DNA from: a virus
Reading direction: 5' to 3' (one strand)
DNA: 64,000 bases
IMG/VR virus record: IMGVR_UViG_3300046387_000246
Span: 1 to 64,000 of that record
The notes below the pieces were generated by a model that was not told the origin of the DNA, made no database searches, and saw nothing but the letters and a program-made list of their open reading frames with translations. The stretch's first letter is position 1. Every line of letters starts with the position of its first letter. Of the stretch, positions 223 through 38,600 are shown piece by piece. The position numbers and the translations under genes are program-made.

Positions 223-269
223 ATATGTGTCACAATACACCTAGAATAGGGTACAAAATACCTTATAAT
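214..269 (+). promoter_or_regulatory. early promoter element copy 1: GACAGTT-N6-GTGTCAC, 30 bp, TATAAT
   Basis: GACAGTT 214-220, GTGTCAC 227-233, TATAAT 264-269; no -35 box; one of five copies with conserved spacing. Confidence 0.85.
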
Positions 270-294
270 AGTAGTATAGAAACAAAAAGACTAA

Positions 295-522
295 ATGAAA
301 CCAAATCTTTACACAATGATGTTCAATACAGTCTTATCGATAGACTTTGGAAGAACATTCTGGTTAGATGAGCAAAAAGAACTATGTTCAGCACCAACTT
401 TTACAGATGGTTCAACTGACTGGGATATGTCAGACTATGTTTGCGACTGGACAGATCTAGATGGTATAAATCTAGGTAAATTACTTAACATTCAAAAATC
501 ACTTCTTAAGGACTTCCAATAA
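295..522 (+). CDS. early hypothetical protein
   Basis: 75-aa ORF directly downstream of promoter copy 1. Confidence 0.75.
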   Translation: MKPNLYTMMFNTVLSIDFGRTFWLDEQKELCSAPTFTDGSTDWDMSDYVCDWTDLDGINLGKLLNIQKSLLKDFQ

Positions 523-818
523 TGACAAACGATACAAAACTCACAAATGACCAACTCACCGAAATGAAGGATTCATTCGTTGAGATTATGGTAGATGGGA
601 TGGACACCAAAACCTTAGCACGTTATGTTTATGACTCAATGAGTGAGTACTATGAAAAGATGAATGAACACGATTTCAAAGAAGAAATGGATAATTACGA
701 TGAATGCCTTTATGATGAGTTAATGGAAAATGCACTCATTGAAGATGAAGAAGAAAAAGAAGAACACTTCTCAGAAATTCTATTTGATAGAGAAGTTGGA
801 GGTGCTATTGATGACTAA
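522..818 (+). CDS. highly acidic early hypothetical protein
   Basis: 98 aa, very D/E rich, TAATG coupling to the previous ORF. Confidence 0.8.
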   Translation: MTNDTKLTNDQLTEMKDSFVEIMVDGMDTKTLARYVYDSMSEYYEKMNEHDFKEEMDNYDECLYDELMENALIEDEEEKEEHFSEILFDREVGGAIDD

Positions 819-7098: not shown

Positions 7099-7100
7099 TT

Positions 7101-17600: not shown

Positions 17601-20600
17601 CGGTCTTCTTGTTGGTGACACTGTTACCATCTACGGTGCAAACCCAACTGTGTTCAACGGTACGTTCCTAGTTACTTCACGTATTAGTGATTTCCTCTTT
17701 GAATACAATATACCTGCACCAGCAGATGCTGCTCCACAAGGTAATATCCTCCTATCTGTTGACTTGAATAAAGGTAAGTCTACAGAAGAAGGTATCAGCA
17801 TTGCAATTAGAGACTTTACTACAAACGTACAAAATACATTCTTTGACGATACACACTCATACATCGCTTCTTCAGGTATACCGAACTATCAGGTAGGTCC
17901 TTTCGTAGGTTCTGCACTGTTACCAGGTAACCAACGTAAACTTATACGTATACCACGTGTCATCAATACAATAAGTAAACGTGAACAAACAAGTTTCGGT
18001 CCTATCGGAGCCTGGGTGAACGGAGTTTCTGCCTGGTCATACAAGTCTGAAACAAAAATTAAGTACGGTGGTGTTATAGACATCTCCATAACAAACGTTG
18101 GACAGGGATATGATGCAGCGAATCCTCCTGTTATTGAGATTAGTGGAGGAAATGGTACAGGTGCTGCTGCTAGTGTTGTTGTAAACGGAGCGTTAAGTGA
18201 GATTGAAGTTACTTCTGGTGGTACTGGTTATACTTCTAGTCCTCTTGTTTCTATCGTGGGTGGTAACGGATTCGGTGCAACTGCTACTGCTGTTATTACA
18301 AACGGTGTAGTTTCTAAGATCTTAGTAGAAAACCCAGGTCAAGGATATACATCTCAACCTGATGTGTCTATTTCAGGTGGTGAAGGAACAGGTGCAACTG
18401 CTACTGCTGAAGTTCGCGGACCTATTCAGTCTGTAAGTATTGACAATGCAGGTTCATCTTATACCGCATCTCCTACTATTAAACTAAATTCAGGTGAAGG
18501 TGCTGTTGCACAATCAATCATTATTAATGGTCGTATCGTTTCAATCGCTATTATTGCAGCAGGTCGTGCATATACTACTGCACCAGAGATTGTAATCAAT
18601 GGAGATGGTTATGGTGCTGTGGCAAGAGCTACAATTGGTACAGTTGGTGAAGATAGAGGTAAGGTTATTGGTGTTACAGTTGTAAATAGAGGTATAGGAT
18701 ATACAACAGGTAACACAACGATCCGATTGGAAGCAGTCGGTGAGATGGCGACATTCACTGCAAACGTTTTTGAGTGGACACGTAACCTACAAGATGAATT
18801 AGGACAATCCTTTGATACAGCACGCGGTTATGTGTTTGCAGGTTACAACACTCAGTATGGTGGTGAATATGCTCACGTATCTGATCCAAAACAGCTCCGT
18901 TACGTCTTAGGCGATAATGTCTTCAAAAACCAATCGACTCAACAATTACAAGAACTTGCTACTGGGTGGTTACATTCTCCGATTCTTGGATGGGCATTCG
19001 ATGGTAACCCCATTTATGGTCCTTATGGTTACATTGATGCTACCGACCAGTCTTCTGGTGTACGTCGTATTAGAAGCTCTTATAAGATTAAGGATGTCTT
19101 AATCTATGACGCTGCAACTAACCCAACTCCAGTAAGAGCAGACGGACCTCTACTAAGCAACTATTCAGCTGGATCATTTATTGAAGATTATGAATATACT
19201 TTCCAATATGGTGACTTAGATCAATATAACGGGCGTTTTTGTAAGACTCCTGAATTCCCTGAAGGCATATATGCGTACTTTGTGTCTATCGATGCATCAG
19301 ATGCAGGTAATCCTATATTCCCATACATATGCGGTTCTCAACTTTATTCTAAAGCAGATGAGTGGAACTACAGTCAGAATGCTGTTCAAACAAATATTCC
19401 ATTAGGTGTTGTTAGATTTAGAGATCCATATGAAGATGTTGACATCGATATTGATCGTCAACCAAACCAAGATACTGATATTCTTGTAACTGAATTTGGT
19501 GAGGAACTTATCTTTGAAATTGAAGATACAAACCGTGATGGTGTTATCAATAATTTAGAAGATAGTACACCTATTAATATTGCAGAAGAACCTGTACTTC
19601 AGTTATTCGATTACTATCCTAAAGTTTCTACTAGATCAGAAGTTGATATTGACATTGAAACTACGACTAAATTTGAGGATGCTCAAGTTGATGGATTTGT
19701 GGTAGAGAATCCTGGTATTTCTTATAAAGTAAACGATAAACTATACTTTGATAATACAGATACAGAAGGATTTGGTGCTTCTGCTAAAGTTGACTCAGTT
19801 AAAGGTCTTTCAATATCTGGTTATTCTTCATATATGGCGAATGATATACCTTATGGTCGTATCACTACTCCTTCAGAACACGAATTGCGTATTGGTGATG
19901 AAGTTATCGTTACCAGTAATCCTATATTAGATTCTACAAATAAAACTTATAGAGTTAAAGTTATATCTGGTGTTGAAGAATTAACAATTACACAGAATGG
20001 TGTTGGTTATTCTTCTGAACTACCTCCAACCTATGAGTTGATTACTGACACAGGACAAGATTTCCAACTTTCTCTGGTTAGAACTGATGCAGGTGGTGTT
20101 TCACAAGCAAATATTATCAACTCTGGTTCTGGATACAGTGCTTCTAATCCTCCACAGATCAGAGTATCACATCCACAGAGATATAAGAAAGCAACTTACT
20201 TCTTATCCTTTATTAAAGAAGCAACTGGTATTCTTTCAGTAAATGACGTTAGAGTCGCTGATGACCGTACTATCTACGTTGTTGGACAAAGAGATATAAC
20301 TGGTGGTGATACTTGTGGTGTTCTTGCTAAGTTCAACAGTGATGGTCGTTTACTTTGGCAGAGAACCTTAGTTCCTACAGTTCCAAATGCTAATCCCAAG
20401 TCACTAAAATGGAATTCACTATATGTCGAAAACAGCAATCCTCATAATATCTACGTTATTGGTGAAACTGTTCCTAATATTACTAACTTAACTCATAACC
20501 CAGACGTTATCGTTGCAAAATATACTTCAGGATTTGATAATGCAAACAACCCTGATGGTATTCTTCAGTGGCAACGTGATATTGCAGGTATATCTGGTGC

Positions 20601-23600
20601 TACAAGAAGGGACTATGCTACTTCTATTGCTCTTGATCAAGATGGAAGAGTAATGATAGGTGGTTATACAGACTCTAACAGTTTGTATGCTGACGATATG
20701 TGGGTTGCTTTACTTGATATCGATGGATCTATTATGGAGAAGCGTAAAATCGCTTCTAGTGCAGTCAGTGAAAGATTACATCAGTTAAAGTGGAAGTCTA
20801 CAGATAGATTCCTTTTTGTTGGTATTAACGAACCAGATAATACCTCTGACATCATTATTGGTGAAACTGTCTATGATAGTGCAACTATTGAATTAGCTTG
20901 GTCTAAGAAGATCACTAATGCATCTTACAAGTTTAAGAATCCAACATTTACTATTGATGAATATGGTTCTGTATATGTAACTGCTACTGCTGTTAATACT
21001 GATGGTAAGAATTATGGTGTTTTATATGTAAAATTTGACAATGACGTTTATACTTCTACCATACACCAAAAGATCTTTGTACCAAGTGGTACTTATCAGA
21101 GTTGTGAGAATGGTGGAGTTAAATTTGATATCTTTGGTAACGTTGATGTATCTTGTTCTGTACAGGAAGATTTCAATGCTGCTAAATCTGTAACTCTAAA
21201 GGTAGGTTGGAACACAGGTACCGCTATTAATTCTACAGTTCTATCAGAAACAAGTGGTATTGGTTTCAAACCTGTTGCAGTATCTAATGATAACTCAGGT
21301 GATACTATTGTTGTTGGTAATAAAGTTGAATCTGACCAACTTGCAATCTTTAACTGGGATACTGCTGATAACTTATTTGATGAGACATATAATGACACTT
21401 TAAAAACTGGTACAAACAAACAGTGGTATGCTACTGGTAACGCTGTAATTGATGACACTAAGAAATTTGCTGGTGCATCTTCTATTAAATTAGATGCTGC
21501 TAACTCTCTTGCACTTCAGTATGGATCAGATGTAGCAACCAGTTGGACTATGGAGGGATTCTGGGCACTAGGATCTACTCAGTACGCTGCTGCTAATACA
21601 AAACCAATATTCTATACATCTACTGATAATGCAGGTAACGTTGTTAAATTTGGTCTTGATGCTGATCAAAGTAGTCCCAACTACGGTAAATCATTTATAG
21701 ACATCTCAGGTACAACTACATTCTCTGCTGCATCTGTATACTTTGCTGTACTTAATAATGAAGTATTCATTCACGTAGCAGCAGTTAAAGAACGTGTTGG
21801 AGTTGGAGATTACAAATATAGATTCTTTATTAATGGTATTGAAACACAAGTTCTTACAAGTACCACAATTGATGTTAATTTAAAAGATGCTAGTGTGGGT
21901 CCTGATGGAACACCTGGTTCAGTCAATAACTGGATTGGTTGGATTGACAACATAGTCATCTCACCGACCGCCAAGTATGTTGAAGCGTTTACTCCCCCTG
22001 ATACACCGATTCTTGGTTCTAATAGTATCAGTAAAGGTTTCTTATACAAGGTTGACAAAGATAAAACACAGTTAGGATCATTTACTCTTAACGATGTTGA
22101 ATCAGGACATCAGATAACTCTTGCTTCTACATCTGCATATACATTCAATACTCAAGCAGTAACGCTGAATCCTTGGACAATAGGTCCTGCTGGTATTCAA
22201 ATCCTTGACTATGGTGATGTAGTAGCACAGCACGTACCTGGTGTATTTACAGTCACATCTACAGATCAGTCTTACGCTAATAAAACTTCTACTATTCCTA
22301 CACCAGGTGGTAAGAAATTACTTCTTACAACTACTGTTGTACCAAAATACTACTTCAAGGATGCAACATATACACAAATTGACCTTGTTAAGACAATATC
22401 ATTTAATCAACCAGCTACATTCACTAAAGGTGCTACATTACAACAGTATTCAGTGATTGGTGGTTCTGATGTTATATCTGCGTATGGTCAAATTGTTGAA
22501 GTAGGAGCTAGTTCTGTCAAGATTGGTAAGATTATTGGTACATTTGATAACACAAAACTACTAAAATCAACTGCTAATGACATAAATGAACTAGAAAGGA
22601 ACTTTACAGAAGAAAAAACAGAAACACAATGGGCAACTAACTTCAATTACACTGTTGGAGATGTAGTTTATAACGATAAAAAACTCTATACTGCACAAAC
22701 AACTGGTGTTTCAAGTACAATTGCACCTGTACATACAACTGGAGTTGTTTCTGATGGTGCTATTAACTGGGCTTATACCTCAGCATCAGGCATATATGTT
22801 GTAGATCTTGCAAATACATCTTATAATGGCAGTACATTAGCAACATTTGCTTCTTGGAAAGCATTCTCAGCGTCTGATTACACTATTAAGATTGAAGAAA
22901 TCTATGATGACTCCAACTTTATTAAAGGAGACACCATTGATGCTGATGCTGTCAACCTACAATTTGCTGTTGATGCTACTGGTAAGATAGCAACCTTCAC
23001 TGGACTGCTTGGTGTTAAGAAGATATCTTTAATTGCAAAACTTAATAAGGACGTAATTCCTTCTGGATCACTTACAAACACTGATTTAGTATATTGTTCT
23101 GCTGCAAGTAGACATAATTTCGAACTTAATGACATTATATTCACTGAAAACTTTGGTACTAATGATTATAATGGTTCATTCTTCGTAGAAGAGATATTTA
23201 ATTCTAGAGACTTCAGTTTCCGTCTAAGAAGCACTGCTGTACAAGATCCTACCTTTGCTGGAACTGGATCTTCAGTAGCTAACGTCAATATTTACGCTAA
23301 ACATCCTAAATTCCTCTTTGTTAGAGGTCATCAGTACATTTTTGACCTTGATGATGCTTCTAACTTAGGATATTACTTGTCATTCTCTAAAGATAACCAG
23401 TATAAACTGGAATATCCTTTCATTAATATCGTTAGAGAAGGTACACCAGGTTTCACTGATGATGATTCACCAACTCCATTGGTTAAATTTATCATTAACG
23501 AAGACGTTACTAATATTTCATACTACTTTGACCCTTCTAGAACAGGTGCAAACTCTCCTGTTGGTGAAGGATCATTCATTGACGTTATAACTTCACCTTA

Positions 23601-26600
23601 TCAAGGTACATTTAGAGTAACTGGTACAAGTAACGGTGGTAAAACATTCGACTTCAGACTATTAAATGAACCAGAAAAAACTACTGGTGCTGTGGGTAAT
23701 GATGAATTTGGTCTTCCTCGTTCTACTTACTCAACAACATCAATTAAGGCTATCGGACCTATTTCCGCTATTAAACTGGTAAATCCAGGTGGATTCTATC
23801 AGAAACTACCAATCGTTACAGATATTGCTTCTAACAGAGAAATTGAAAAGGTTAGAGTTACTAACGGTGGTACTGAATATGTAAATGGTGTCTATTATAA
23901 TGTTCCTATCTCTGGAGACGGTGAAGGTGCTATGTGTAACATCACAGTTACTGATGACGGTGACTTTACTGGTGTTATAACTGATGTTACTTTAACCTCA
24001 GCAGGTAAAGGATATAAAACTGCAACTATTGATGTAGATGCTATACCAGGTATTTTAGGACCTCTACTTGCAGGTTCTGGTGCAGTACTAGATGTTGTGA
24101 TTCCTGATGAAGGTTCAGGTGCATCTGTATTCTTACAAGGTAAATCAATTGGTAAGATCAAGAAACTTAAGAACAATGAATTTGGTTTCGGTTATTCTCA
24201 CGACTATACACTAAAACCTGAAATAACTTTCCCTGTAAACCTTCAGTTGTTTAATACCGCTTTACTAGCACAAATCAAGATAACTGACCCAGGTTCTGGT
24301 TATACTTCAACACCTGCTGTTGTAATCGAAGGTGGTGGTGGTTCTGGTGCTAGTGCTGAAGCAATAGTTAAGAACAACAGACTTTCCGAGATCATTATTA
24401 AAGATCCAGGTGCAGGTTACAGTTCTGAACCAACAGTTACACTTAAATCAGAATTTAACTACGTTGTTAACGTTGATTTAGGATATCTACAGTTCAACTT
24501 CCCACACGGTATAACAAACGGAGCAGAAGTAACATTAAGAGCAGAGGATCTTGGATCTACAGTCGGTATTCTACCAAAACCTAGTTCAGCAGGTTTGGTC
24601 AGTCTATCTTCTTCCCAGACATACTATGCTATTGCAGGTCAAGCAAATGGTCTTGAATCTGATCAGTTACGTATCTCTCTAACACAGTTAGATGCTGAAT
24701 CTGGTTCTTACATTACATTCCTAACACAAGGTGAAGGTAGACAGATACTTCTTACTGAGGTATTTGGTGGTCAAGCAACTGCTATCGTTGAAACTTCTAG
24801 ATTCCTTGCAGGTGAACTTGTTTATCAAGGTACTTCACTTCAACTTGCATCTGCTACAGGTTATGTTTCTACTAACGAAGGTTGGCAGATCGGACCTAGA
24901 ATCCTTAAACTTGAAAACTATGACGGTGTATGGAATCCTGGTGAAAGAGTAACTGGTGAGGTATCACGTGCTTCTGGTTTGATTGATAACCTTTCTATTG
25001 CAAGAGGTACACTTGAAATTGCATCTCTAACCAATACACCAGGTCAGTTTATCGATGACGTTGGTAAACCATCTGAAATTGTTCAGAAGATTCAAGATAG
25101 TTACTTCTATCAGAACTTCTCCTATGTTATTAAGTCTCAAACACCTATTAACCAGTGGAGAAAACCTGTACTAGAAACAAACCACCCTGTTGGATTTAAC
25201 CTATTTGGTGAACTATCAATCACTGGTGGTAAGGATATATCTGGAAGAAAGGTTGTATCTGACCTTATTAAAGAAGTTAATATTAATAGTTTCACTAATA
25301 TTAATAAAATTACATCATTTGCTAACGCACAACCAATTTATACTCAGTTTAATAACACTGAAGTCTTATTCAGACAGAAGAGACTTACTAACTCTGAGGA
25401 AATTCTAACTTCTATCGTTAAGAAATTAGATGATATTTCTGAGGACTTTGATGGAATTAGAACTCAATTCCCTCTTAATGTAGAGGGTGGAAGTATTACA
25501 GCAGCAGATAATCAGATGTTTGTCTTGATTAATGGTGTTGCACAGTCTCCTAGCGTAGCATTCTCAACTTCAGGACCTTCAGTTGTCTTTACTGAAGCAC
25601 CGAAAGCACCTTCTAGAATTAAGTTTAGAAAGGTTACACTAGCACAAAAGATAATCACAAGACTAACATTTAGTAGTATTGGTGGTATTTTCCCATTACT
25701 AGGCAATACAGTTCGTGGTATAGTTTCTGAAGCAACTGCAACTGTAATTGACTCTGGTACTAATTACATTGACGTTATTGATGGAGAAGGAACTTTCCAA
25801 ATCAATGAAAATGTTCTTAATAGTGCCACAGGATTTAACTCTGTTCTTAGCGATGTTTCTCCTCAAACTTCTAAGACTATCTACGAACAAGGTGAAAGAA
25901 TTACTAACCTACAAGGTAAGTTTGCTGTTATTGAAGAAAATAACCTAGATGATGGTACTGTTACTAATTTACTTGTTGTTTCTCGTACATCTGGTACTGC
26001 TGAGTTTGAAACTGGTGAATTTGATTTAGGATTTAACGATATAATTTATTCAGCACGTTCTAAGATTGCAGCAACTATTCAGTCTATTGCACCTTATCAG
26101 GATGAGGTATCTAATCAAATTATTGATACAGTTGATCTATCTCCTTCATCTTCCTTCTTTGGTCTTGTATTCCAGAGGGTTCCTTCAATTACTTTCCCGA
26201 ACGTTATCCTTGATAATATTTCAGAGACTGTTATTAACCCAACTGAACTTTATACTGAAACAGTTAATAACCAAGACTTCCTAGACTTTGAGAATGTACG
26301 TAACCAAGAGGTTAGACTTTATAACCAATCTGGTACTGCATTTGTTGCTGGTGATAAATTACGTCTTAAGAAACTATACTTTGGTAACTCTTCACTAAGA
26401 AGGGGACACGATGTACGTACATTTAACGCTGCTGAGGCTCTAACACGTAATGCAAGATTTATTGCAGAAGAATCCGTGGGAGCAATGTTGGCTTTCTACC
26501 CCTCCTTTAGCATTCAAACTGGAAGAAACGCAGATTGTGAAGATGATATCGTAGATGCTCTTACTATGATGGCGTGGCAGTTAGAGTTTGATGGTAACTC

Positions 26601-29600
26601 TGAAGTATTTGATATTGCTAATACTTACGTTCAAGGTGGCGGTGTATATCACGTAGATGGTGAAGTACCTCAAACTGTTTACGCAATGGAACAGGCACGA
26701 GATCTAGCGATCAAGTGTATCAATATGGTGACTATTAATACTGTACATACTTCATTACAGCAATGGAAAGATTTAACCGTTACTGGTGAGTATAGTGTTA
26801 CTGATAACTCTCACGGTGATGCAAGAACAATGATTCTTGCTAACAAGTGGTATATCGCTCACGAAGCATTGTACTATGCTAAACAGCAGAATCCTGGTTA
26901 TACAGTATCTGGTGGAGATGAGCATTGTCTTTCTGATATTGTTGATGTTCTAGAAGCATTAGGATATAACACTGCTCACGGTGGTAATGACTTTGTATAT
27001 GAAGCAACTGATAGAATTCTTCATTATGGTGTTACTTCTGGAGACAGAGATACCATCGTAAATGCGATGACTAAAGCCAGAGATATGGCAATCGCTGTTA
27101 TGAGAAATACTGCTGTTGCAAAACAAGATACTTCACACGGTTGGACACAGTTTACTGATGCAACTCTAACTGCATCACTTGAAAGTCCACTTTGTGCAAC
27201 AGTTGAGGCAACAATAACCACGTTGATGAATTTACTGATTAATGCCCTCGGTACTACTGCATCACCTGGTACAAGAGCAGCATTCTTAGCTGGTCAAACT
27301 AGAACAGAACCAAGTACAGCACTATTATCAGTTCCTGATGCTAATGCTTGTGTAAACCAGACATCTGCTATTACAAACTACTTCAGAATAATTACTGATA
27401 CATTACAGGATCCTACAGGTGCTGATAAAGTAACTTATCCTTGGTCTACAAGTAACTTACAAAGAGTTGCACCTCCATACTCATTTGTTGACACTGAAAA
27501 TCTTAAATCTATTAAGCACGCTTATAAAGATAAGTCATCTGGTGGATTCTTCGTCTTTGGTGAGACAGTTACAGGTATCACATCTGGAAACACTGCTGAG
27601 ATCATCGGTTCCAATGCAGGTAATAAGTGGATCTATACTAAGAACCCAACTGGTGCATTTACTGCTGGAGAATACATTACTAATAGTCTCTTAACTAATA
27701 CTAATGTAGTTGTAGATAACTTAGATTATGCTGTTGGTACTGGATCATTAGAATTTAACGGTAGTGCATACTTAACATATCCTGCAACTGAAAATGTTGC
27801 TTTTGGAGATGGTGCTGGTGCTGCTGGTGACTTTACTATTGAATTATGGGTCAAGGTTACTGCTGTTAATACTAACCAAGTTCTTATTGACTTTAGAACT
27901 GCTGCTGGTTCTACAACCGAAGCATACTTAATCATTGTTAATAACACTGTTCGTTGGAACACAGGTAATGTTGATAGAATTACATCGTCTGCTAGTTTAC
28001 AAGCAAATACTTGGACACATATCGCTGTAACACGTAACTCTGGTCTAACTAGACTATTTGTTGGTGGTTCAAAAGAAGGTGTTGATTATACAGACGCTAC
28101 AAACTATGGCAATATGCCAGTTAAGATTGGTGCGAACGTTGCTGGTTCTCTACCAATGACAGGTCATATTGAAAACTTGATGATTAAGAAAGGGATTGCT
28201 GAATACAGTTCTAGCTTTACTCCAAGTGCAACATATGATTCTGGAGACTTACGTCTAACATTTGGATTTGATGGTGAAGCACCTATTCCTCTTATTAAAG
28301 GTGAAATTTATGCTACATTCCAACAAACAATAACATCTCAATGTTCTGCTGATGGTGTAGAACTATGGCGTGATGAGATTATGACTGAAGAGATTGATCT
28401 TGCTCGTGATACTTATAGAGATTGTGCAGATATAATTGAGAAGAATAAGTATTGGATTGCTGAGGAAGCTATCGGAAGAATGAAGGCGAAGTATCCTGAC
28501 TTTATCATTCCTGGTGATACTGGTATATCTGATCAAGGTACTAAGACTTGTTTAAGAGATACTTACGAATATATTATACCTGCTATCGTTGCTGATCTTA
28601 AATACGGTGGTAACTATAATACTATTGTTGCAGGTAGAGGATATCTTGCTAACCAACAAGGTCAGTTAGCACACGTTAATGGAGAACTTCTCCAGTCCAT
28701 CTATGCTTGGAGAGAAGTTGGTAAGTTATGTAATACTGTTATCACTGCTAACGCTGATGATCTAACTGGCGTATATACAACTCGTATTCGTGTTCCTAAT
28801 TACTTTGCATCACCAGCCTCCAGTACAATCACTACTTACATTAGTGATATTATGGATGATCTTCTTGATGTTCTAGGTCCTACAGGTCACAGATATAGAG
28901 ACGGTGCTGATCTATTGTACTTTAATAGAAAGGCAATCGCTGAAGAAACAGTGATGTGGTTGGAAGAAAAATACAACATAATGATTGGGTTTAATACCGC
29001 AGATAAACTCACTATACCTGGTGGATCTGTAGGTACCAATAAGTGTATTCGTGACTTGAGAGACCACATTATACCTGCGATCTCAGGAGATTTACTTACT
29101 GGTGGTAATGCTAATATTCAAGGAATTATAGATTCTTATTTAAGTTCATCTGATAATATTTCTTACGTTGAGACAGAACTACTACCAATGCTTGATGCTA
29201 TTGGTTATACTAAGTGGTTAATGGAGAAAGCATTACAGAACTGTTTGGTTGGTAGATCTGAAAACGTCGCTAATATTACAGGTATGACTCCACTGACTAT
29301 AGATGATCTATTCCAGTTGCAGTATACAGACATTCCAGTATTCCGTAAAGAAGTTTCTGCTGATGACAACTTTGCAGAGCAACCTCTTGATCCTCAGATA
29401 TATGCAGGATCACAACGTGCTTTAGATGCTGCTGATCTAATCAATACTAATAAGAGAGCGATTGCTGAGGAAGCAGTTGACTTAACAATCAAAACAGAAG
29501 CATTCAAACATTATGGATTTAGAGTTCCTGGTGGAAAGGTTAATTGTGAAGATGATATTGTTGATATTCTAGAAGGTGTTGTTCACGATCTTAGATTTAA

Positions 29601-32600
29601 CTCTAACTCTAAGACTTACGATGCTGCATTATTGTATCTTGATTCTGAGAATGGATTGAAGCACGTTAAAGATCAACCTGCTGAAACACTCTTTGCTATG
29701 AAGATGGCAAGAGATATGACAGTTCTCGCGATTCAGAACCGTCTTGGATTTAAACCATATGCAACATATGCTCCAGCTGGCGGTGGTGCTACTGGTGGAG
29801 AGGGCTTTGCTGGCGGTGGTGCTATTGTAGAACCACGTGATACTTACTACGAAAACGCTTCTGGTAACAAGGCATATAATGCTGCTGATGAGATTAGAAA
29901 TAACTTAAGATTCATTGCTACCACTGCTGTTGGACGTGCTGTACAGCAGTATCCTTCACTAGCATTTGGTGGATATGGTTATCAGTCTTGTGTTGATGAC
30001 TGTGTTGATATTCTAGAGTCATTAGTATTCAACTTATCACACGGTGGTAATAACAAGATGTGGTATGCCACTGAGTTTTATATCACTGATGCTAATGCTA
30101 TTCAACACGTCAATAACCAAGCAGCTGAAGTTAAGTACGTATTCGAACAAGCACGTGACCTTGCTATTGCAGTAATGAGACAGCAGTTGATCACAACTAA
30201 CGGTTATACCGAAGGTGATGCGATCTATGATCTTGATATTACTATTGACCAAGCAAGTGGAACTGCTAAACATACACCATCAAATGCAACTTATAATCCT
30301 AATACTGGAGACTTAGTTCTTACTATCACTGGTTCTCATTCAATTACTACAAGTGATACTCTTAGAATTGATACTAATTCATTAGTCTTTACTTGTGATC
30401 AAGATGATCATCAAACTTTACACCCATATCCAAGAGCAACTGATCCTGCTGCATTAGCAATTCTTCCTATTACTGCTGTAAGTGGACAGGATATTACAGT
30501 CAATGTTGGTATAACACAGAGAATTAACTTTGATGCAAAGGATTCTACTTATGATCCTGAGACAGGTCTATTAACTCTTGATATTGGATCACACAATCTA
30601 AGAATTGGTCAATCACTTAAGATTCTACAAGATGAACTACTATTCCGTTGTTCACAGGATAATTACAGAACTATTCATAAGTATCCTCGTATTACTGACC
30701 CAGTAGTTGATAAAGCAATTGATATTGAAGCTGTCGGGACTACATTCCATACTGCTACATTTGCTTCTTGGAGACCTGACAGTGCGTTCTTAAGTATTAC
30801 TATTCCTAATCACGGATTCAAGAATGGTGACAGAGTTAGAATCTCTAATCATTCTATGACATTCACTTGTTCTATGGATCAGCATTATAGTAAGAAGACT
30901 TATCCAAGACTTTCTGATGCTGCAAGTGGATTATTCCTACCAATTTCTAATGTAACTAGAAACAATTTTGATGTGAACATTGGTAAGAGTCCTATCAAAT
31001 ACTTCACACCATCTCAAGCAAACTACAACCCAACTACAGGTGCACTAGAACTTATTCTTGGAAACCACGGTTTGACTGCTGGTACTCACATCAAGATAGC
31101 AGATAACTCTCTAACATTCACTTGTGATGAGGACGATAACGCTACTTATCACACATACCCAAGAACACAGACTGTACAGGTTACTCCAACAGATGCTTCT
31201 TACAATCCTGTTAATGGTCACCTAACAGTTACTGTTGCTAATCACGACTTTAAGGTTGGTGAGTTTGTTAAGGTTGCTGAAAATGGAATCGTGATGACTT
31301 GTGATATGGACGGAAATGCTTCTGAGCATCCATATCCACGTAAGAAGGATCCAGCATATGATTCTTGGATGGAAATTGCAGCAATATCTACAAACACATT
31401 TACATTTAAGGTTGGAGAATCTCCTCAAATAAGTTTCACACCGACAGATGCGGTTTACACCCCTACTACTGGTGATATGAAACTCACTATTGGTACTCAC
31501 AATCTACAAGCTGGTACTGCATTGAAGATTGAAGAAAGTGGAATCGTATTCAGTTGTGCACAAGATAATCACGCTACAGAGCATCCTTATCCACGTAGTA
31601 CTATTCTTACTGCTCCTAATATTTCCAACGCTATGTATGATCCAGCGGCTGGTTTATTAACAGTAACAACTGCTGCTGTTCACGGCTTCACAGATGGCGA
31701 TAAAGTTAAGTTTGCTGATAATGCTATTACATTCACTTGCTCAATGGATAGTAATGCAACAAATCATCCATATCCAAGATCAACTGACCCTGCATCTGGT
31801 AAGTGGTTAGAAGTTGATGTAACTAGCACAACTGAGTTTACTTGTAACGTAGGTAGGACACCTAGTGTTGTATTCGATCCTTCAATGGTCGTTTATGATC
31901 CTTCTACAGGTATTATGGTTATGACCATTGGTGCTCACGACTTAACAGTTGGAACATCTGTAAGAATCGCTAATAATTCAATTACATTTAAGTGTGCTCA
32001 AGATAACTACGCTACTGATCACTCTTATCCTCGTTCTACTGACCCATTCTATGATACTTCTTGCCCAATCACTGCTGTTACTGACACCACAATTTCAGTA
32101 CAAGTTCTAAGTACAGTTCCATCTACAAACGTAACTGCTCATACTTGGCAACCACCTGCTAAGTTGACACCAACTAATGCAACTTACAACCCAAGTACAG
32201 GGGTTATGGAAGTTACTGTTGCTAATCACGGTTTAATGAATGGTGAGCACATCAGAATCGATGAAAATGCTTTCACATTCACTTGTAATCAAGATAGTAA
32301 TGCTACTAACCACGCATATCCAAGATCAACTGACCCTGCATACCATCAGTTCTTACCAGTTTCTAACGTAACTCAGAATACATTCCAAGTTACTGTTCTT
32401 GCTGTAACACCTTCTACTAATACTACAACTCACGCATTTGTAAGTGCTGTTTCTGATAGCATTACTAGAGGTGTTGTGAGAAGCGGTGGTATTTACACTC
32501 ACGCATTTGTAAGTGCTGTTGCTGGATCTCTTTCATATAAGAAAGACCAAGCATTTGATTCTTCAGTTACTATTAAGCACGAAGGTACTCCTTTAACTCC

Positions 32601-35600
32601 TACAGGTGCTTCTTATAGTGGAACTACTGGTATTTGTCAGATTACTAGCAACAATCACGGATTAATTGATGGTGATTATGTCAAACTAAGAGATGGTGCA
32701 TTGACATTTACTTGTGCTGAGGATAGCAATGCAACAAACCATCCTTATCCAAGACACACTGATTTAGCATCTAATAAGTGGTTAAAAGTAACTAACGTCA
32801 CTCAGAATACTTTTGACATTCAAGTACTATTCTCTATCCCATCTACTAACCAAACTGCTCATTTATTTGTTTCTGGTTTAACTGATGGAATCGTTAAGAA
32901 GGACGATACAATTACTGTTAATGTTGGTGCAACTACTGCTGGTAACTACGAGCATAAGTTCTTATATGCAGAACCTGCTGCAATCAAGACTGGTGGTAAT
33001 TACAACCACGTATTTAAGTCAGCGTTGCCATATTCTATTACTAAGTCTAAGGATCCATCATACAGTAATGTATTGACAATCGATGGTGCAACTTCAACTT
33101 CAATCACAGTTAATGTTCTTCCAGCAGTACCTTCTACTAACGAAACATCTCATACATTTATTTCTGCTTCCAATAATGCTATTACTACTGGTGGTCAGTA
33201 TGTTCATAAGTTTATTGAAGCACAACCTGATGGTATTGAATTAGAATCTGGATCAATTACAGTTAATGTTGGTACAACACCTGCTGTATTCTATAGTGTT
33301 GCTGATGCAATCTATGATGGTGAAACAGGTGATATGGAACTTATGGTTGGTGCACACGAACTTCTTGAAGGAACAAGTATCAAGATTCACGATAATGCAT
33401 TGACATTTACTTGTGATATGGATGATCACGCTTCTGAGCACGTTTATCCTCGTTTAACTGACCCTGCTGCAAACACTGCTTTAGTAATGAAGGAAGCAGG
33501 TTCCACTTCTCATACTGTTACTGATGCATCTTACAATACTATAACTGGTGATATGACCTGTACCCTTAATGGTCACGGTCTAAAAACCTCAAGAACACTC
33601 TCTCCAACCTTTGCTAAGTTTGATCCTACAACAGGTGATATGGAAATATATTCAGTTAATCACGGTATTACTGATGGAGAAAGTGTCAAACTTGCTGATG
33701 GTGCTGTTACATTTAGATGTGCTAAAGATCAATTCAGTTCAACTCATCCATATCCAAGATCAAGCGATCCTGCATCTGATCAATTCCTAGTTGTTAAACA
33801 CGCTTCTCAAAATAGATTTACAGTTAACGTTGGTACTGGAGAAACTGGTGGTGCTATCTCTGACCAGAGTGAGCATAGATTCCAAGCATCAGTTCCTAAT
33901 AGTATTACTGTTGCTCCTAATATGGTTAAGTTTGATCAGGATGCTATTACATTCACTTGTACTAAAGATAGTAATGCTACTAACCACGCATACCCAAGAG
34001 CAGATGATCCTGTAGCTGGACATTGGATTCCAATTAAGGCAGTAACTACAAACACATTTACTGTTAATGTTGGTGTTTCAACTGCTGCTGGAAACTATCC
34101 TCACACATTCGTCAGTGCAACTACTGGTGGAATGAAACTACAAACTGGATGGGTTAAGGTTAACGTTGGTTCTACACCTTCTACTGGGTTTGATCCTGCC
34201 ACTGCGAGTTTCAACGCAATCACAGGTATTATGACTCTTGGTTTGGGTAATCATTACTTCAATAGATTTGATAATATTAGAGTACAACCTGAGTCATTAA
34301 TATTCACTTGTGGTTTAGATAACAATGCAACGAATCATCCATATCCTCGTTCTACTCTCATCGAATCTACTCCTAGTGATGTAGATTATAATCCTTCTAC
34401 TGGATACTTAACTATCACACAGAATAATCACGGATTCTCTAATGGTGATTTTGTAAGATTCAAGGAAAACGCATTCACATTTACTTGTGATATGAACGGT
34501 AATGCTGATAATCATTCATATCCTCGTACAACTGATCCAGTTTATGATAAGTGGGTTACAGTTGAGAGTGTTCAAGCAAATACCTTTAATGTATTTGTAG
34601 GTAAGACACCTACTACTGGATTTGAACCATATGCTGTAGATTATAATCCTTCTACTGGATTGATGAAGATGACTATTGGTGAGCATAAGTTTACTACAAG
34701 TCAGAGCATTCGCATCGCTGCGATGTCATTGAACTTCCGTTGTGATCAGGATGGTCAAGCTACAGACCACTTATATCCAAGATCTACTGACCCTCTATAT
34801 CAAACTTCAGTACCTATCTCTGCTGTTGACGATACAAGTATTACTATACAAACTCTTGCATCTGCACCTTCAACTAATATAACCACTCACGTTTGGCAAC
34901 CTCAAGTTGGTATTACTCCTACTGGTATTGATTATGATCCTGTGACTGGAATGATGACAGTTACTTGTTCTAATCACGGATATAACGAAGGAGATATGGT
35001 TAAGTTTGCTGAGAACGGAATTACATTTACTTGTGATAAAGATAGTCACGTTTCTGATCACCCATACCCACGTAAGACAGACCCTGCTTGGGATAAGTGG
35101 TTACCAATTGAAACTGTAACTGGTACAACATTCAGAGTTAAAGTTCTTGACAATGTTCCTTCCACTAATATTTCTACTCATACATTTAAATCTGCTGTTG
35201 CTAATTGTATAACAAGAGCAACTGTTAGAGGTGGTGGTGTTTACAATCATACTACTGTGTCTATTGCTTCTAATAGTATGGAGCATAAGAGAGATCCATT
35301 CTATCAGAGAGGAATCAACATTGATCAGGTTGAAGAGACAACTCATACAGTAACCAATGCTTCATACAGTCCATCATCAGGTGTGATGAGACTTACAATA
35401 CCTAATCATAATTTCACTGCTTCCACATCTCATACTGTAACTGATGCTCTTTATACACCTGCTGACAGTATGTTGAGATTGACTATTGCAGGTCACGGAT
35501 TCAAGGAAGGTGACAGAATTAGAATCGCTGATAATTCTATTACATTTACTTGTGATCAAGATAGTAATACTACTAATCATTCATATCCAAGATCAACTGA

Positions 35601-38600
35601 TCCTGGTAGTGGTGCTTGGTTAGTTGCAACTAAGGTAAGTACAAATCATTTCCACGTTAATGTTGGTAACTTCTTTGGTAGAGGTCCGATTTCTAATCAG
35701 ACAACTCACTCATTTGTATCTGCAACTGCTAATGGTGTAGAGAAAGCAAATGATAAAATCAAGATGGCAGAAAACTCAGTTACATTTACTTGTGCTAAAG
35801 ATGATAATGAAACTCTCCATCCATATCCTAGACAAAATGATCCTGCATACAACGAATATCTACCTATTTCTGATGTAACTACTCACGAGTTTGATGTATT
35901 TGTTGGTCGTGCAAACTTAGATCAGACTGTTCATCAGTTCTACTCTGCAACAGATAACGGAGTTACACATCCTACTGGAAATATTACAATCAACGTTGGT
36001 ATTTCTTCTAACACTACAACTCACAACTACGTTACCACTACTACAACTTACGATATAACTGGAGCGACCTACAGCCCAACTACAGGTGTAATGACGCTGA
36101 CCATTCCTAATCATAAGATGTATGTGGGTGAGTACATTTATCTTGCTGATGGTGCTGTTACCTTTAGTCAAGGTGCTTTACCAAATTCAAATGATGAAGT
36201 AAGTGGAAGAATGATTCGTGTACAAGGTGTAATTTCTGATAACCGCATTCTTATTGTTTACGGAACTAATAGTAATACTGCATCTTGGTCATATCAATCT
36301 GCTACTGCTGGTGCAGTTACTAAACCTAAGATTCTTGGTGGTGGTGTTTACAATCACAAGTATGTTAGTTCTACTGGTATGGCAGTTCGTGGTGGTGGAC
36401 ATTATACTCACCAATTCGAAGGTCCTGCTAAGACAACTGTTACTGACGCTGCATACAATCCTACTTCAGGTGTTATGACTGTTACAGTTCCTAACCACGG
36501 TTGGGAAACTGGAGATGGTGTTATTATCGATGACGATTCTATCGTATTCACTTGCACACAAGATAGTGGTGCTACTGAACATCCATATCCAAGATCAAAG
36601 GATCCTGTAAGTCGTCAGATTCTTACAATTTCAAATGTAACTACTAACACATTTGATGTACAGGTTCTAGCAACCACACCTTCTACAAACACAACTACTC
36701 ATACATTTGTAAGAGCAACTAAGCACGGTATCAGAAGAGCTGCTATTCACACTGGTGGTGCTTATAATCACATCTTTGTTAGTTCTACAAATGATTCTCT
36801 AACATCATATGTTGGTGGTGGTGCTGCTCGTTGTCAAAACGAAGCATCTGCTATTACTACATTAATGAATATTCCTATCAATCTATTTGGTAGTGGATCA
36901 GCTAATCCAAATACTTACATAAGTGGTATTACTAGAACTCTACCGAAGGAGTGGCCACTAACAGGTGAACGTGCAATTCAACGTGATATTTCAATCACAT
37001 ATGATAGTGGATCTGGTGACTGTGCAACTGAAGCATCTACAATTAGTACATTATTTGGATACTTAATTAATGTTATTGACACTGCTTCTAAAGGAAATGG
37101 TAACTACTTTACTAACCAATCAATAACAAGAAACGCACCTGCTCAAACTAATACACTTCTTGCTGGTGGTGGTATTTGCTATAACGTAGTTTCTGCTATG
37201 TCAACATTGGCAGACTTGTTAGAAGATACTCTTGGACAAGCTCCTGAAATGTATCGTCAAACTGCAAGACTACTATTATTGAATGACACATACGTCAGAC
37301 GTGAATCATATTATAAGACAGTACAAACTTACGCAGGTTATAACGGTGACGAAGATTTCGGTGATTCAGTACGTAAAGCATTTATTTATGACTTACTCAC
37401 AGACGGTAATATTGCAACAATCGACTTAGTTAATAGTTGGTTTGATGCCGAGGGTAATTTCATCGCGTATCCTGGCATCTTCAGGACACAATTAATCTTC
37501 CACGCAGACGCTGTTAAAGAAATGTGTGTCAAGATTATTAAACAGAAAGCAGATAATCCTGGTGGATATAACCAAGAGATTCCTTATGAGAATAAGGAGT
37601 ATCGTCCTACTGAGACTGCTGAACACAAATTACATCAACTATATCATATAATTGACGTTGCACTTAACCGTTCTACATTCCCATCAATTTACTTGAAGTT
37701 TAACTTTGATGTTGGTGCTCAGGTTAATCAGAATGGTTCACTTGATGCTCCTGATGGACACAACTTCGAAGCATATGATCGTGTAACTTATACAGTTCTT
37801 GGTACTGCTATTGAAGAATTAGATCGTACAACTTATATCATTCACCCAGACACATCAGAGAATCTAATCTGGTTGGCAGAAGAGATTGATGGTGAGAAAC
37901 TTACCGTACTATCTCCAGGCACACCTGGTCAGACTCACCAATTATCTGTATCTGATGAGACTGGTATCAATAGAGTTCCTACAACTTACGGTACACGTAA
38001 TGTTCCTACACCTATTACTGGTGGTATCAATACTGCTGATATATTCTTCGGTGAAACTTCAGGTGCATATGGTGAAGTTATTAGAATCCAAGACAACTTA
38101 GCAGATATTCTATACGCTGTTAAGTGGATGCCACTCACACGTACAAGTGATCCTGAGACATTTGTTAACGGTGAAGAAGTTGTTAAGACTGGTGCTACTG
38201 GTAACAAAGGAACTATCCTCGCTACAGACAATGCAACATATGTGAAGATTATTATTACTGGTGGAAACATTCAATCTGGTGATGCAATCGAGGGATCTAC
38301 CTCTGGTGCTACAGGTAATATTGGATCTGATATTCACGATCGCTTATTGATCAACATCAAGCAAGGTGATTTCATTGCTACTGATATACTTTATGCTAAG
38401 AATGCTACAAGTAAGGCAGAAGCATTGATAGTACGTAATAACGATGGTGCTCTACTTGATAACCAATCTGGACGTGTCACATTTGACATTGAATCTGTTA
38501 AAGGTCAATTCAATAGTGGCGATGTTATCTACGGTTCTGTTACTGATCAAATCATCGAGATTGAAGGATTTAATATCCTTCCTGGATTTGGAGAATATAT

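What the first reader, a model, noticed from the sequence alone, without database searches (positions are those of the whole stretch)
30260..36810. Recursively nested (matryoshka/tree-shaped) domain array inside the 8566-aa virion protein
Seen: about 2180 aa consist of 21 copies (A-U) of a ~100-aa module: [A.YNP.TG..L.I..H]-[GD.V.I...TFTC..D...H.YPR]-[.DP...L.I..V]-[.F.VNVG]-[H.F.SA...I]. The copies are not tandem. Many break off at one of five fixed points (after the first His, after YPR, after I..V, after VNVG..P, or after H.W/F), host another copy, and resume later in last-in-first-out order. Example: D stops at YHTYPRTQT and resumes several hundred residues later at KDPSYSNVLTIDG. F stops at HPYPRSTI, resumes at KDQAFDSSVTIKHEG, hosts J, then resumes at DDTITVNVG. 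Closing strands stack up (VVRSGG / IYTHAFVSA / NYNHVFKSA / QYVHKFIEA / AYNHIFVSS). My hand parse balances fully: A(B(C(D(E(F(G(H(I)))(J)))))(K(L(M))(N(O(P(Q)))(R(S))(T)))(U))). Depth is 9, and B and N each carry three children. The whole tree sits in a loop of a helical repeat (ARDLAIAVMRQ...ITID // RCQNEASAITTLMN). Inference: one polypeptide folds into a branched, antler-like surface appendage built by repeated in-frame insertion of the domain into itself. I know of no description of this architecture.
Basis: partly seen in the sequence, partly recalled or inferred. Interest (0 to 1): 0.9.

Follow-up and report, generated by a model that had tools for sequence, protein, structure and literature searches.

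The report
Nested barrel-domain tree in phage baseplate
A giant baseplate protein of a marine T4-like cyanophage contains 21 copies of a small beta-barrel domain that are inserted into one another up to nine deep. The same principle is known on a smaller scale in cyanobacterial RNA polymerase, but I found no description of it in a virus particle or at this size.

Summary
Residues 5194-7376 of the 8566-aa ORF (window 30262-36810) hold 21 copies of a ~105-aa module: 7 contiguous and 14 split into 2-4 pieces.

Evidence that the split copies are nested:
- A profile built only from intact copies stops at fixed positions (28, 58, 72-74, 82-84, 95) and resumes later.
- The pieces of each split copy add up to 101-106 aa, and each joined copy aligns to the whole profile.
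- All pieces together cover the region except for 3 residues.
- The invariant His92 of ten split copies lies in the distant closing piece.
- In 67 related proteins from viral metagenomes, a resuming piece matches the most recently opened copy 310 times, against 115 ± 10 after shuffling.
- AlphaFold2 folds an intact copy (pLDDT 97) and a five-copy nested chunk (pLDDT 89). Single solved barrels superpose on the split copies across their inserts.

The fold is a six-stranded barrel like the ubiquitin E1 FCCH domain and the endosialidase barrel. Such barrels are known as outward-facing phage tail decorations.

Recursive insertion of a domain into its own kind is already described for the SI3 region of cyanobacterial RNA polymerase (8-10 domains, 6 levels). 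This is therefore a new and much larger variant, not a new principle. The branched shape and any adhesive or metal-binding role remain inferences.

The parts
14683..40383 (+). Giant ORF of 8566 aa. It is a gp7-type baseplate wedge / virion structural protein of a T4-like cyanomyovirus.
   Evidence: phrog_701 virion structural protein and phrog_2885 baseplate wedge subunit. It directly follows a gp6-like wedge gene (phrog_219, window 12573-14666). The P-SSM2 and P-SSM4 homologues are annotated gp7.
30262..36810 (+). The whole nested array, aa 5194-7376: 21 module copies, depth 9.
30262..36810 (+). Copy A (depth 1). Pieces: aa 5194-5280 and 7358-7376. Broken at profile position ~81-83. Hosts B.
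   Evidence: The joined copy is 106 aa and aligns to profile 2-103, gaining 8.2 bits. His92 lies in the closing piece.
30523..36759 (+). Copy B (depth 2). Pieces: aa 5281-5355, 6189-6200, 7238-7249, 7354-7359. Hosts C, K and U.
   Evidence: 105 aa, profile 4-95, gain of only 4.5 bits, so the later pieces are weakly supported. His92 and Phe94 are present in piece 3.
30748..33246 (+). Copy C (depth 3). Pieces: aa 5356-5437 and 6170-6188. Hosts D.
30994..33189 (+). Copy D (depth 4). Pieces: aa 5438-5496 and 6124-6169. Broken at profile position 58. Hosts E.
   Evidence: The second half is an independent profile hit (profile 56-104, E 4.5e-12). Joining gains 49.5 bits. The two halves folded as separate chains gave weak support (0.45 against 0.01 for the best control).
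31171..33048 (+). Copy E (depth 5). Pieces: aa 5497-5582 and 6104-6122. Hosts F.
31429..32991 (+). Copy F (depth 6). Pieces: aa 5583-5640, 5954-5968, 6074-6103. Broken at profile positions 58 and 74. Hosts G and J.
   Evidence: gain of 21.3 bits. In the AlphaFold2 chunk, solved barrels align over model range 1..529 with 67-82 residues aligned.
31603..32541 (+). Copy G (depth 7). Pieces: aa 5641-5727 and 5935-5953. Hosts H.
   Evidence: The E1 FCCH and phi92 endosialidase barrels align with 80-81 residues over model range 62..378.
31864..32490 (+). Copy H (depth 8). Pieces: aa 5728-5825 and 5931-5936. Broken at profile position 95. Hosts I.
   Evidence: The closure cannot be tested by sequence (gain 0.6 bits). 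The model makes it a strand (residues 355-358), and barrels align over 151..358.
32158..32472 (+). Copy I (depth 9), intact, aa 5826-5930.
   Evidence: 143 bits, profile 2-104. AlphaFold2 pLDDT 97.4.
32587..32901 (+). Copy J (depth 7), intact, aa 5969-6073. Second child of F.
   Evidence: model range 391..497.
33283..36390 (+). Copy K (depth 3). Pieces: aa 6201-6273, 6488-6499, 7220-7236. Hosts L and N.
33502..34140 (+). Copy L (depth 4). Pieces: aa 6274-6303 and 6412-6486. Broken at profile position 28-29. Hosts M.
   Evidence: Both pieces are independent profile hits (profile 1-29, E 5e-7; profile 30-103, E 4.5e-27).
33589..33915 (+). Copy M (depth 5), intact, aa 6303-6411.
34180..36345 (+). 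Copy N (depth 4). Pieces: aa 6500-6558, 6870-6885, 7098-7120, 7216-7221. Hosts O, R and T.
   Evidence: pieces at profile 57-72 and 75-98; gain of 26.6 bits.
34357..35289 (+). Copy O (depth 5). Pieces: aa 6559-6645 and 6851-6869. Hosts P.
34618..35238 (+). Copy P (depth 6). Pieces: aa 6646-6741 and 6847-6852. Hosts Q.
   Evidence: the closure cannot be tested by sequence. P is the paralogue of H (51% identity between G-H-I and O-P-Q).
34906..35220 (+). Copy Q (depth 7), intact, aa 6742-6846.
35338..35973 (+). Copy R (depth 5). Pieces: aa 6886-6913 and 7022-7097. Broken at profile position 28. Hosts S.
   Evidence: Both pieces are independent profile hits (E 3e-8 and 2.7e-26).
35422..35748 (+). 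Copy S (depth 6), intact, aa 6914-7022.
36043..36327 (+). Copy T (depth 5), contiguous but degenerate, aa 7121-7215. It lacks Cys43 and the YPR motif.
   Evidence: 46.9 bits, profile 2-104. No YPR in this stretch.
36430..36741 (+). Copy U (depth 3), intact, aa 7250-7353. Third child of B.
36811..36939 (+). Terminal helix of the helical repeat unit whose loop hosts the whole tree (aa ~7377-7419).
   Evidence: Local alignment to aa 4171-4208 scores 68, against shuffled 31.7 ± 4.6.

Best explanation
Residues 5194-7376 of the gp7-type baseplate wedge protein form one tree of 21 copies of a ~105-aa six-stranded beta-barrel. The barrel resembles the E1 FCCH domain and the endosialidase barrel. Each copy except the leaves is interrupted in one to three inter-strand loops: after profile positions 28, 58, 72-74, 82-84 or 95. 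A complete further copy sits in each interruption, and the host copy resumes afterwards. The chain therefore runs out to the leaves and back, and the missing strands are supplied in last-in-first-out order. Every child is thus tied to its parent by two chain crossings. Every parent is completed only after its whole subtree has been made, so folding should proceed from the inside outwards (inferred). The closing pieces carry the invariant His92. Together with His24, Cys43 and His52/Asp46, His92 probably forms a structural metal or core cluster that locks each barrel shut (inferred, not tested). The tree is itself inserted in a loop of a helical repeat unit. It evolves by duplication of whole sub-branches and by gain or loss of whole modules (shown). 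The most likely role is a rigid, branched, multivalent decoration at the periphery of the baseplate that adheres to host surface glycans or otherwise tunes adsorption. This role is inferred from three things: the baseplate gene context, the use of the same fold as an outward decoration on other phage tails, and the sialic-acid-binding barrel of endosialidases.
For: Shown:
- Hits of a profile built only from intact copies stop and restart at five fixed positions.
- The pieces of all 14 split copies add up to 101-106 aa and align end to end with the profile. The region is covered except for 3 residues.
- His24, Cys43, Tyr54-Pro55-Arg56, Asp59 and His92 are present in all 14 joined copies. Cys43, Pro55 and His92 are invariant in 143 intact copies. 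In A, B, C, D, E, F, G, K, N and O the His92 comes from a closing piece 200 to 2100 residues downstream.
- Last-in-first-out order holds in 67 distinct relatives: the class of a resuming piece equals that of the top of the stack 310 times, the second element 62 times and neither 74 times. Shuffled: 115 ± 9.6, maximum 147.
- AlphaFold2 gives pLDDT 97.4 for intact copy I and 88.7 for the 529-aa chunk F(G(H(I)))(J). In the chunk every closing piece forms the strands that its parent lacks.
- VIA-align places the same solved single barrels on model ranges 62..378 (G; 9mc4_A Z 8.2, rmsd 2.9, 81 aligned; 4hiz_A Z 7.3, rmsd 2.5, 81 aligned), 1..529 (F; e.g. 8ftm_B Z 6.1, 81 aligned), 151..358 (H; 6geh_A Z 5.2, 80 aligned) and 391..497 (J).
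- The two halves of D, 627 residues apart, were folded as separate chains. Result: weak support, score 0.45 against 0.01 for the best of 3 controls. The runs agree in at least 89% of contacts and the partner pLDDT is at least 63. The mark was reached by 51 of 78 solved complexes and 2 of 108 mismatched pairs. At 0.60 or below it was reached by only 5 of those 78 solved complexes and by all 4 mismatches that passed.
- Orthologues at 69% identity are colinear without indels. One at 53% identity differs by indels the size of whole modules: 97 aa at copy I, 88 aa at copy T, and about 545 aa extra within P.
- The F subtree and the N subtree are 44% identical, and G-H-I and O-P-Q are 51% identical with 1 gap.

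Context:
- The gene follows a gp6-like wedge gene.
- The fold matches the E1 FCCH domain, the phi92 endosialidase barrel and phage tail proteins.
- FCCH-like barrels face outwards on siphophage tail tubes (PMC13576161).
Against: The three-dimensional evidence is prediction only. I could not read coordinates, so closure is inferred from secondary structure, pLDDT and the ranges of structural alignments. The alignment for F had only 8 full-length rows. The pTM of 0.55 means the overall shape (rod or branched) is not determined. Closing pieces of the same class cannot be assigned to particular parents by sequence, so their order is assumed. The 6-aa closures of H, P, N and B carry no sequence signal. 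About 30% of informative resumptions in relatives did not match the top of the stack. I attribute this to short pieces the profile missed and to ORFs cut at locus ends, but I did not prove it. No evidence bears directly on function, metal binding or position in the virion. No solved structure or experiment exists for this module.
Confidence: 0.82

Rival explanations
1. The region is a degenerate tandem array. The short pieces are decayed remnants of copies or plain linkers, and truncated copies simply fold as incomplete barrels strung one after another.
For: The 6-aa closures of H and P add no profile score. Several short pieces were not detected automatically. Copy T is degenerate.
Against: Piece lengths add up to the module length for all 14 split copies. 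The invariant His92 is always supplied by the proposed closing piece. Piece classes follow stack order far beyond shuffled expectation. The model gives closing pieces a pLDDT of 80-93, and they lie within the ranges that superpose on single barrels. Decay would not keep the order and register conserved at 69% identity.
Confidence: 0.03
2. The chain does run out and back, but in the virion the closing strands complete barrels of neighbouring chains. That would make an intertwined, domain-swapped oligomeric fibre, like the out-and-back needle of the T4 long tail fibre tip, rather than a monomeric tree.
For: Phage fibres are commonly intertwined trimers. Recursively inserted HABAS domains in RNA polymerase sometimes exchange secondary-structure elements (PMC11515920). 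Only a monomer was modelled here.
Against: The monomer model closes all five barrels within one chain at a mean pLDDT of 88.7. T4 gp7 is present as a single copy per wedge (established knowledge of the T4 baseplate). Nothing in the sequence calls for a partner chain.
Confidence: 0.1
3. The nested architecture is real but is mainly a structural spacer or ruler that sets baseplate geometry or protects the protein mechanically. It has no ligand-binding role.
For: No binding site could be examined. The conserved residues look structural: a Cys/His cluster, YPR and DP turns. Double tethering would make a stiff strut.
Against: Copy number and topology vary widely between related phages: 12-35 profile hits and depth 5-11. 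This is more typical of host-facing decorations than of a ruler. The same fold serves as an exposed decoration, and the endosialidase barrel of this fold binds carbohydrate (PMC13576161; the endosialidase point is from my own knowledge).
Confidence: 0.3

Closest known systems
SI3 insertion of cyanobacterial RNA polymerase beta' (recursively inserted HABAS / sandwich-barrel hybrid motif domains)
   Same: One small beta-domain family is inserted into loops of its own kind again and again, in the pattern A1-B1-C-B2-A2, with nodes that hold more than one child (PMC11515920; PMC13114784; PMC10895346).
   Different: SI3 has 8-10 domains and 6 levels in an enzyme. Here there are 21 domains and 9 levels, and up to about 35 profile hits and depth 11 in relatives, in a virion baseplate protein. 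The best fold matches here are FCCH / RIFT-type barrels, not RNA polymerase. Kinship with HABAS was neither shown nor excluded. Topology varies between close phage lineages.
E1 FCCH-like barrel (PF16190) decorations of phage tail tube proteins, and the endosialidase beta-barrel domain (PF12195)
   Same: Same six-stranded barrel: 4p22_B Z 7.6, rmsd 2.8, 75 aligned; 4hiz_A Z 7.6, rmsd 2.4, 80 aligned; 9jlf_E Z 7.3. Weak Pfam matches to both families. The nearest named cluster in the ESM Atlas is a viral E1_FCCH cluster. On siphophage tails the domain faces outwards (PMC13576161). In endosialidase the barrel is itself inserted in another domain (my own knowledge).
   Different: Those occur as single copies. 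Sequence similarity is marginal: the best Pfam stretch is 18 residues, and PF12195 scores below its cut-off. The Cys43/His24/His92/YPR signature is specific to the cyanophage module.
T4 gp7 baseplate wedge protein
   Same: The gene sits directly after the gp6-like gene. There are N-terminal matches to baseplate wedge families. Homologues in P-SSM2, P-SSM4 and P-HM2 are annotated gp7.
   Different: T4 gp7 is about 1000 aa and has no such array (my own knowledge). The Pfam Baseplate_wedge match is below its cut-off (15.8 against 27 bits).
Tandem Ig-like, FN3 or BACON domain arrays on phage surfaces (for example T4 Hoc)
   Same: Repeated small beta domains displayed on virions and thought to give weak multivalent adhesion. 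Copy number varies between relatives.
   Different: Those are beads on a string with single linkers. Here the domains are nested, each with a double connection, which gives a tree.

Membership tests
Recursive (nested) domain-insertion architecture, A1-B1-C-B2-A2 | The host domain's sequence is interrupted, and both flanks are needed to make one complete domain. | tested here: met
   Joined copies are 101-106 aa and align to profile positions ~2-104. His92 is supplied by the far piece.
Recursive (nested) domain-insertion architecture, A1-B1-C-B2-A2 | The inserted element is a complete domain lying wholly inside the gap, and it can itself be a host (recursion, stack order). | tested here: met
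   Seven intact leaves and 14 hosts. Stack order holds in the window and in 67 relatives.
Recursive (nested) domain-insertion architecture, A1-B1-C-B2-A2 | The interrupted host folds as one compact domain in three dimensions. | tested here: met
   By prediction only. The AlphaFold2 chunk has pLDDT 88.7. Single solved barrels align across the inserts at 62..378, 1..529 and 151..358. No experimental structure exists.
E1_FCCH (PF16190) | Sequence match above Pfam's gathering score. | tested here: inconclusive
   The 2271-aa region sums to 34.3 bits against a cut-off of 29.5. No single stretch passes, and the best covers 18 residues.
E1_FCCH (PF16190) | Six-stranded closed antiparallel barrel of the FCCH type. 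| tested here: met
   4p22_B Z 7.6, rmsd 2.8, 75 aligned; 9mc4_A Z 8.2, rmsd 2.9, 81 aligned. A Z of 7-8 is only middling, so this shows a shared fold, not proven kinship.
Endosialidase beta-barrel (PF12195) | Sequence match above Pfam's gathering score. | tested here: not met
   25 bits against a cut-off of 35. The structural match to 4hiz_A is Z 7.6, 18% identity.
HABAS / sandwich-barrel hybrid motif of RNA polymerase | Fold similarity to the hybrid-motif domains of RNAP beta'. | tested here: inconclusive
   No RNA polymerase chain appears among the 50 rows listed for either model. A family that is not listed is not excluded.
T4 gp7-type baseplate wedge protein | Baseplate_wedge (PF23786) match above cut-off. 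| tested here: not met
   15.8 bits against 27.
T4 gp7-type baseplate wedge protein | Position in the baseplate gene cluster after gp6, and homology to annotated cyanophage gp7. | tested here: met
   The phrog_219 wedge gene lies immediately upstream. phrog_2885 match E 2.7e-298. P-SSM2 and P-SSM4 hits are annotated gp7.
Structural Zn / Cys-His metal site | Three or four conserved Cys/His/Asp ligands that are close together in space. | not testable with these tools
   Conservation: Cys43 100%, His92 100%, His24 98%, His52 83%, Asp46 86%.

The most novel reading that the evidence does not exclude
Marine T4-like cyanophages build tree-shaped baseplate appendages from a single polypeptide by recursive self-insertion of a metal-clamped barrel domain. 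The tree is remodelled quickly by gain, loss and duplication of branches, and it serves as an evolvable multivalent host-adhesion organ. It would be the deepest and largest recursively nested protein architecture known. It would also be a natural case in which outer domains must wait for thousands of residues before they can finish folding.
Probability: 0.35. Interest if true: 0.85.

Novelty: new variant of a known kind. Interest (0 to 1): 0.72.

Why it matters
Domain insertion is usually one level deep. The record described so far is six levels and 8-10 domains, in cyanobacterial RNA polymerase. Here the same principle yields 21 domains nine levels deep in one protein. The module recurs in 321 cultured or assembled cyanophage records, and nested arrays of differing topology appear in dozens of viral metagenome contigs.

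- Protein folding: copy A cannot close until about 2080 further residues have been made.
- Automated annotation: profile searches report these copies as truncated fragments, and no Pfam or NCBIfam family covers the module.
- Structure prediction for giant phage proteins.
- Cyanophage biology: the array lies in the baseplate, where host recognition happens, in some of the most abundant viruses of the ocean.
- Protein design: it offers a natural template for rigid branched scaffolds made from one chain.

Tried and rejected
- Sequence search of the module profile against all solved structures found nothing credible. The best hit was an iota-carbonic anhydrase at E 0.011, with no stretch passing.
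- NCBIfam gave no family for the module or the region.
- Foldseek against the PDB gave no match at E <= 0.001. The fold was assigned from VIA-align.
- A search for stand-alone single-module proteins (55-210 aa) returned 108 hits. Most lie on contigs of 500-1500 bases and so look like pieces of larger genes. None carries a Pfam domain. I did not examine the hits on long contigs, so this neither shows nor excludes a free-standing form.
- A second locus scan with the 529-aa chunk added only a few orthologues, so the alignment for copy F stayed shallow.
- Automatic token parsing misses pieces of 12-15 aa. It also once read a closing strand as a new copy. I therefore placed short pieces by coordinates.
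I repeated it with coordinates only.
- Literature searches for a prior description in cyanophages or phage tails found none.
- I considered an out-and-back intertwined fibre like the T4 gp37 needle. I ranked it low because the monomer model closes every barrel within the chain.
- Model coordinates are not exposed. The overall shape, the faces from which children emerge and the geometry of the Cys/His cluster could therefore not be examined.

Full report
**What is there.** The window carries a baseplate gene block of a T4-like cyanomyovirus. The source is an IMG/VR record of 75,493 bases, about 42% complete. A gp6-like wedge gene (window 12573-14666, phrog_219) is followed directly by an uninterrupted ORF of 8566 aa at 14683-40383. 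That ORF matches the giant cyanophage 'virion structural protein' and 'baseplate wedge subunit' families (phrog_701, phrog_2885). Its relatives in P-SSM2, P-SSM4 and P-HM2 are annotated gp7. The finding covers aa 5194-7376 of this protein.

**Checking the observation.**
It gives 24 significant hits, all between aa 5196 and 7353. Of these, 21 begin at profile positions 1-7 and three begin at positions 29, 30 and 55.
- A second profile, made from 143 intact copies (6 from the window, 137 from 77 IMG/VR loci), gives the same picture.
- Hits do not end at random. They stop at profile positions 28-29, 58, 71-74, 81-86 or 95.
- On the AlphaFold2 model of an intact copy, the stops up to position 86 fall in loops: between strands 2 and 3, 5 and 6, 6 and 7, and 7 and 8. 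Position 95 falls at the C-terminal end of strand 8, just before the 8-9 loop.
- Searching the gaps between hits finds the short resuming pieces at the expected profile positions: 89-103, 73-104, 90-103, 57-72, 75-98 and so on.

**Is it nested?** Four sequence-based tests agree.
1. *Lengths and coverage.* I placed all pieces by coordinates. The 14 split copies reassemble to 101-106 aa (intact copies are 104-109 aa). Each gives one continuous profile alignment. Pieces plus intact copies cover the region except for three residues.
2. *Invariant residues.* All 14 joined copies carry His24, Cys43, Tyr54-Pro55-Arg56, Asp59 and His92. For ten of them the His92 lies in a closing piece hundreds to about 2100 residues downstream of the rest.
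Eight of 11 resumptions match the top of the stack by class, a result reached by 65 of 20000 permutations. The three misses each follow a short piece that the profile failed to detect.
4. *Stack order in relatives.* In 67 distinct related proteins, I took resumptions where the two most recently opened copies differ in break class. The resuming piece matches the most recent copy 310 times, the one below it 62 times and neither 74 times. Shuffling the resuming pieces gives 115 ± 9.6.

Closing pieces of the same class cannot be told apart by sequence, and the 6-aa closures of H, P, N and B carry no signal of their own.

**Structure.**
- AlphaFold2 folds intact copy I with pLDDT 97.4 as an all-beta domain of nine short strands.
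- VIA-align finds the FCCH barrel of ubiquitin E1 (4p22_B, Z 7.6, rmsd 2.8, 75 aligned), the barrel domain of the phage phi92 endosialidase (4hiz_A, Z 7.6, rmsd 2.4, 80 aligned, 18% identity) and a phage FCWL1 head-to-tail interface (neck) protein (9jlf_E, Z 7.3).
- Further matches are FNR-type FAD-binding barrels, riboflavin synthase, domain 2 of translation factors and chains of the large ribosomal subunit, which I take to be uL3. From my own knowledge this set is the 'reductase/isomerase/elongation factor' (RIFT-type) barrel.
- These Z values are middling, so they show a shared fold rather than proven kinship.
- Weak Pfam matches to E1_FCCH and End_beta_barrel and the nearest named ESM Atlas cluster (viral E1_FCCH) point the same way.
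- BFVD holds predicted models of cyanophage tail, fibre and 'baseplate wedge initiator' proteins with the same module at TM above 0.9, all without a family name.

**The nested chunk.** I folded aa 5578-6106, which is F(G(H(I)))(J). The 62-row alignment had 8 colinear full-length rows, 23 rows of the conserved G-H-I cassette and 30 intact copies, and I checked its register first. Mean pLDDT is 88.7 and pTM is 0.55. Each closing piece forms exactly the strands its parent lacks, at block pLDDT 75-93.

Coordinates are not exposed, so I used structural alignment as the test. The same solved single barrels that match the intact copy align, with 67-87 residues, to these model ranges:
- 62..378, which is copy G with H and I skipped: 9mc4_A Z 8.2, 4p22_B Z 8.0, 4hiz_A Z 7.3.
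- 1..529, which is copy F in three pieces: 8ftm_B Z 6.1 and several others.
- 151..358, which is copy H plus its 6-aa closure after I.
- 391..497, which is copy J.

This supports breaks at positions 58, 74, 83 and 95 as true domain insertions, on prediction only.

The two halves of D (59 and 48 aa, 627 residues apart, not part of the chunk) were folded as separate chains. The verdict was weak support: 0.45 against 0.01 for the best of three controls. The runs agree in at least 89% of contacts and the partner pLDDT is at least 63. The mark was reached by 51 of 78 solved complexes and 2 of 108 mismatched pairs. At 0.60 or below it was reached by only 5 of those 78 solved complexes and by all 4 mismatches that passed.

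**Host of the tree.** The 36 residues after the last closing piece (aa 7384-7419) align to the terminal helix of an upstream helical repeat unit (aa 4171-4208) with score 68, against shuffled 31.7 ± 4.6.

**Evolution.**
- The module occurs in 321 phage records, all of them cyanophages or marine viral assemblies, often in several proteins per genome.
- In IMG/VR relatives the number of profile hits per protein ranges from about 12 to 35 and the parsed depth from 5 to 11. Further insertion points appear near profile positions 17, 21-23 and 68.
- Orthologues at 89% and 69% identity are colinear with the window and have no indel of 15 residues or more, so the tree is inherited intact.
- One orthologue at 53% identity differs by indels the size of whole modules: 97 aa at copy I, 88 aa at copy T, and about 545 aa extra within P.
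- The F and N subtrees are 44% identical over about 500 aa. The G-H-I and O-P-Q cassettes are 51% identical with one gap.
- Trees therefore grow by duplication of branches and by gain or loss of single modules. The DNA-level mechanism was not examined.

**How it probably works.**
- *Shown or predicted:* a single chain makes 21 closed barrels. Each child is joined to its parent by two chain crossings. Leaves are completed first and copy A last.
- *Inferred:* folding proceeds from the inside outwards. The Cys43/His24/His92 (plus His52/Asp46) cluster is a structural metal or core site to which the closing strand contributes His92, locking each parent shut. The result is a stiff, branched body.
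- *Function is inferred from context only.* The gene sits in the gp7 slot of the baseplate. FCCH-like barrels face outwards on siphophage tail tubes (PMC13576161). The endosialidase barrel of this fold binds sialic acid (my own knowledge). Copy number and topology change quickly between phages. I favour a multivalent adhesion or host-range decoration at the baseplate periphery. A purely structural strut is the main alternative.

**Comparison with what is known.** The principle is not new. [quoted passage not shown] A survey of 2.7 million domains singles out that case as a six-level nested architecture of 8-10 domains with branching nodes, and most insertions elsewhere are single-level (PMC13114784). 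What is new here is the domain family (unnamed in Pfam and NCBIfam), the setting in a virion baseplate protein, the scale (21 domains and 9 levels here, more in relatives) and the evolutionary plasticity. Five literature searches found no description of it. Subscription journals are largely outside that library.

**Verdict.** The nested reading is strongly supported by sequence statistics and by prediction. The branched shape and the function are plausible but untested. I class it as a new, much larger variant of a known kind of architecture.

Noticed in passing
window 36043-36327 (aa 7121-7215, copy T): The only copy in the tree that has lost the conserved signature (no Cys43, no YPR), yet it keeps full length and a 47-bit profile match. 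It may be a decaying or re-purposed leaf. The orthologue L038 lacks about 88 aa at this place.
   Followed up: partly
window ~28420-28570 (aa ~4581-4630) and the helical repeats at aa ~4080-5190: The helical repeat units that precede and host the tree give a Pfam Phycobilisome (PF00502) match: 35 bits for the whole piece, above the 22.2 cut-off, but with no single stretch passing. A globin-like helical module in a cyanophage baseplate protein would be curious.
   Followed up: no
window ~27790-28190 (aa ~4371-4501): A Laminin_G_3 / concanavalin-like lectin domain (E 1.7e-16) lies upstream of the helical repeats. This is a further candidate carbohydrate-binding element in the same protein.
   Followed up: no
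window ~18775-19295 (aa 1365-1537) and ORF 40383-42128: A YHYH domain (PF14240, E 2.5e-30) lies in the giant protein. Related segments occur in the next gene (phrog_25852 / phrog_2576).
   Followed up: no
loci L019, L029, L034, L012, L026, L032 (IMG/VR relatives): Relatives use insertion points not used in the window, near profile positions 17, 21-23 and 68. Some reach a parsed depth of 11 (L043, L054) or 35 profile hits (L041, L046, L048).
   Followed up: partly
window 31414-33000 versus 34180-35970: The F subtree and the N subtree are paralogous (44% identity over ~500 aa). The G-H-I and O-P-Q cassettes are 51% identical with one gap. Whole branches have therefore been duplicated.
   Followed up: yes
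window 47274-54488 and 55013-61705: Two further very large genes (2404 and 2230 aa; phrog_358 of unknown function and phrog_697 structural protein) lie downstream. Neither contains the module.
   Followed up: partly
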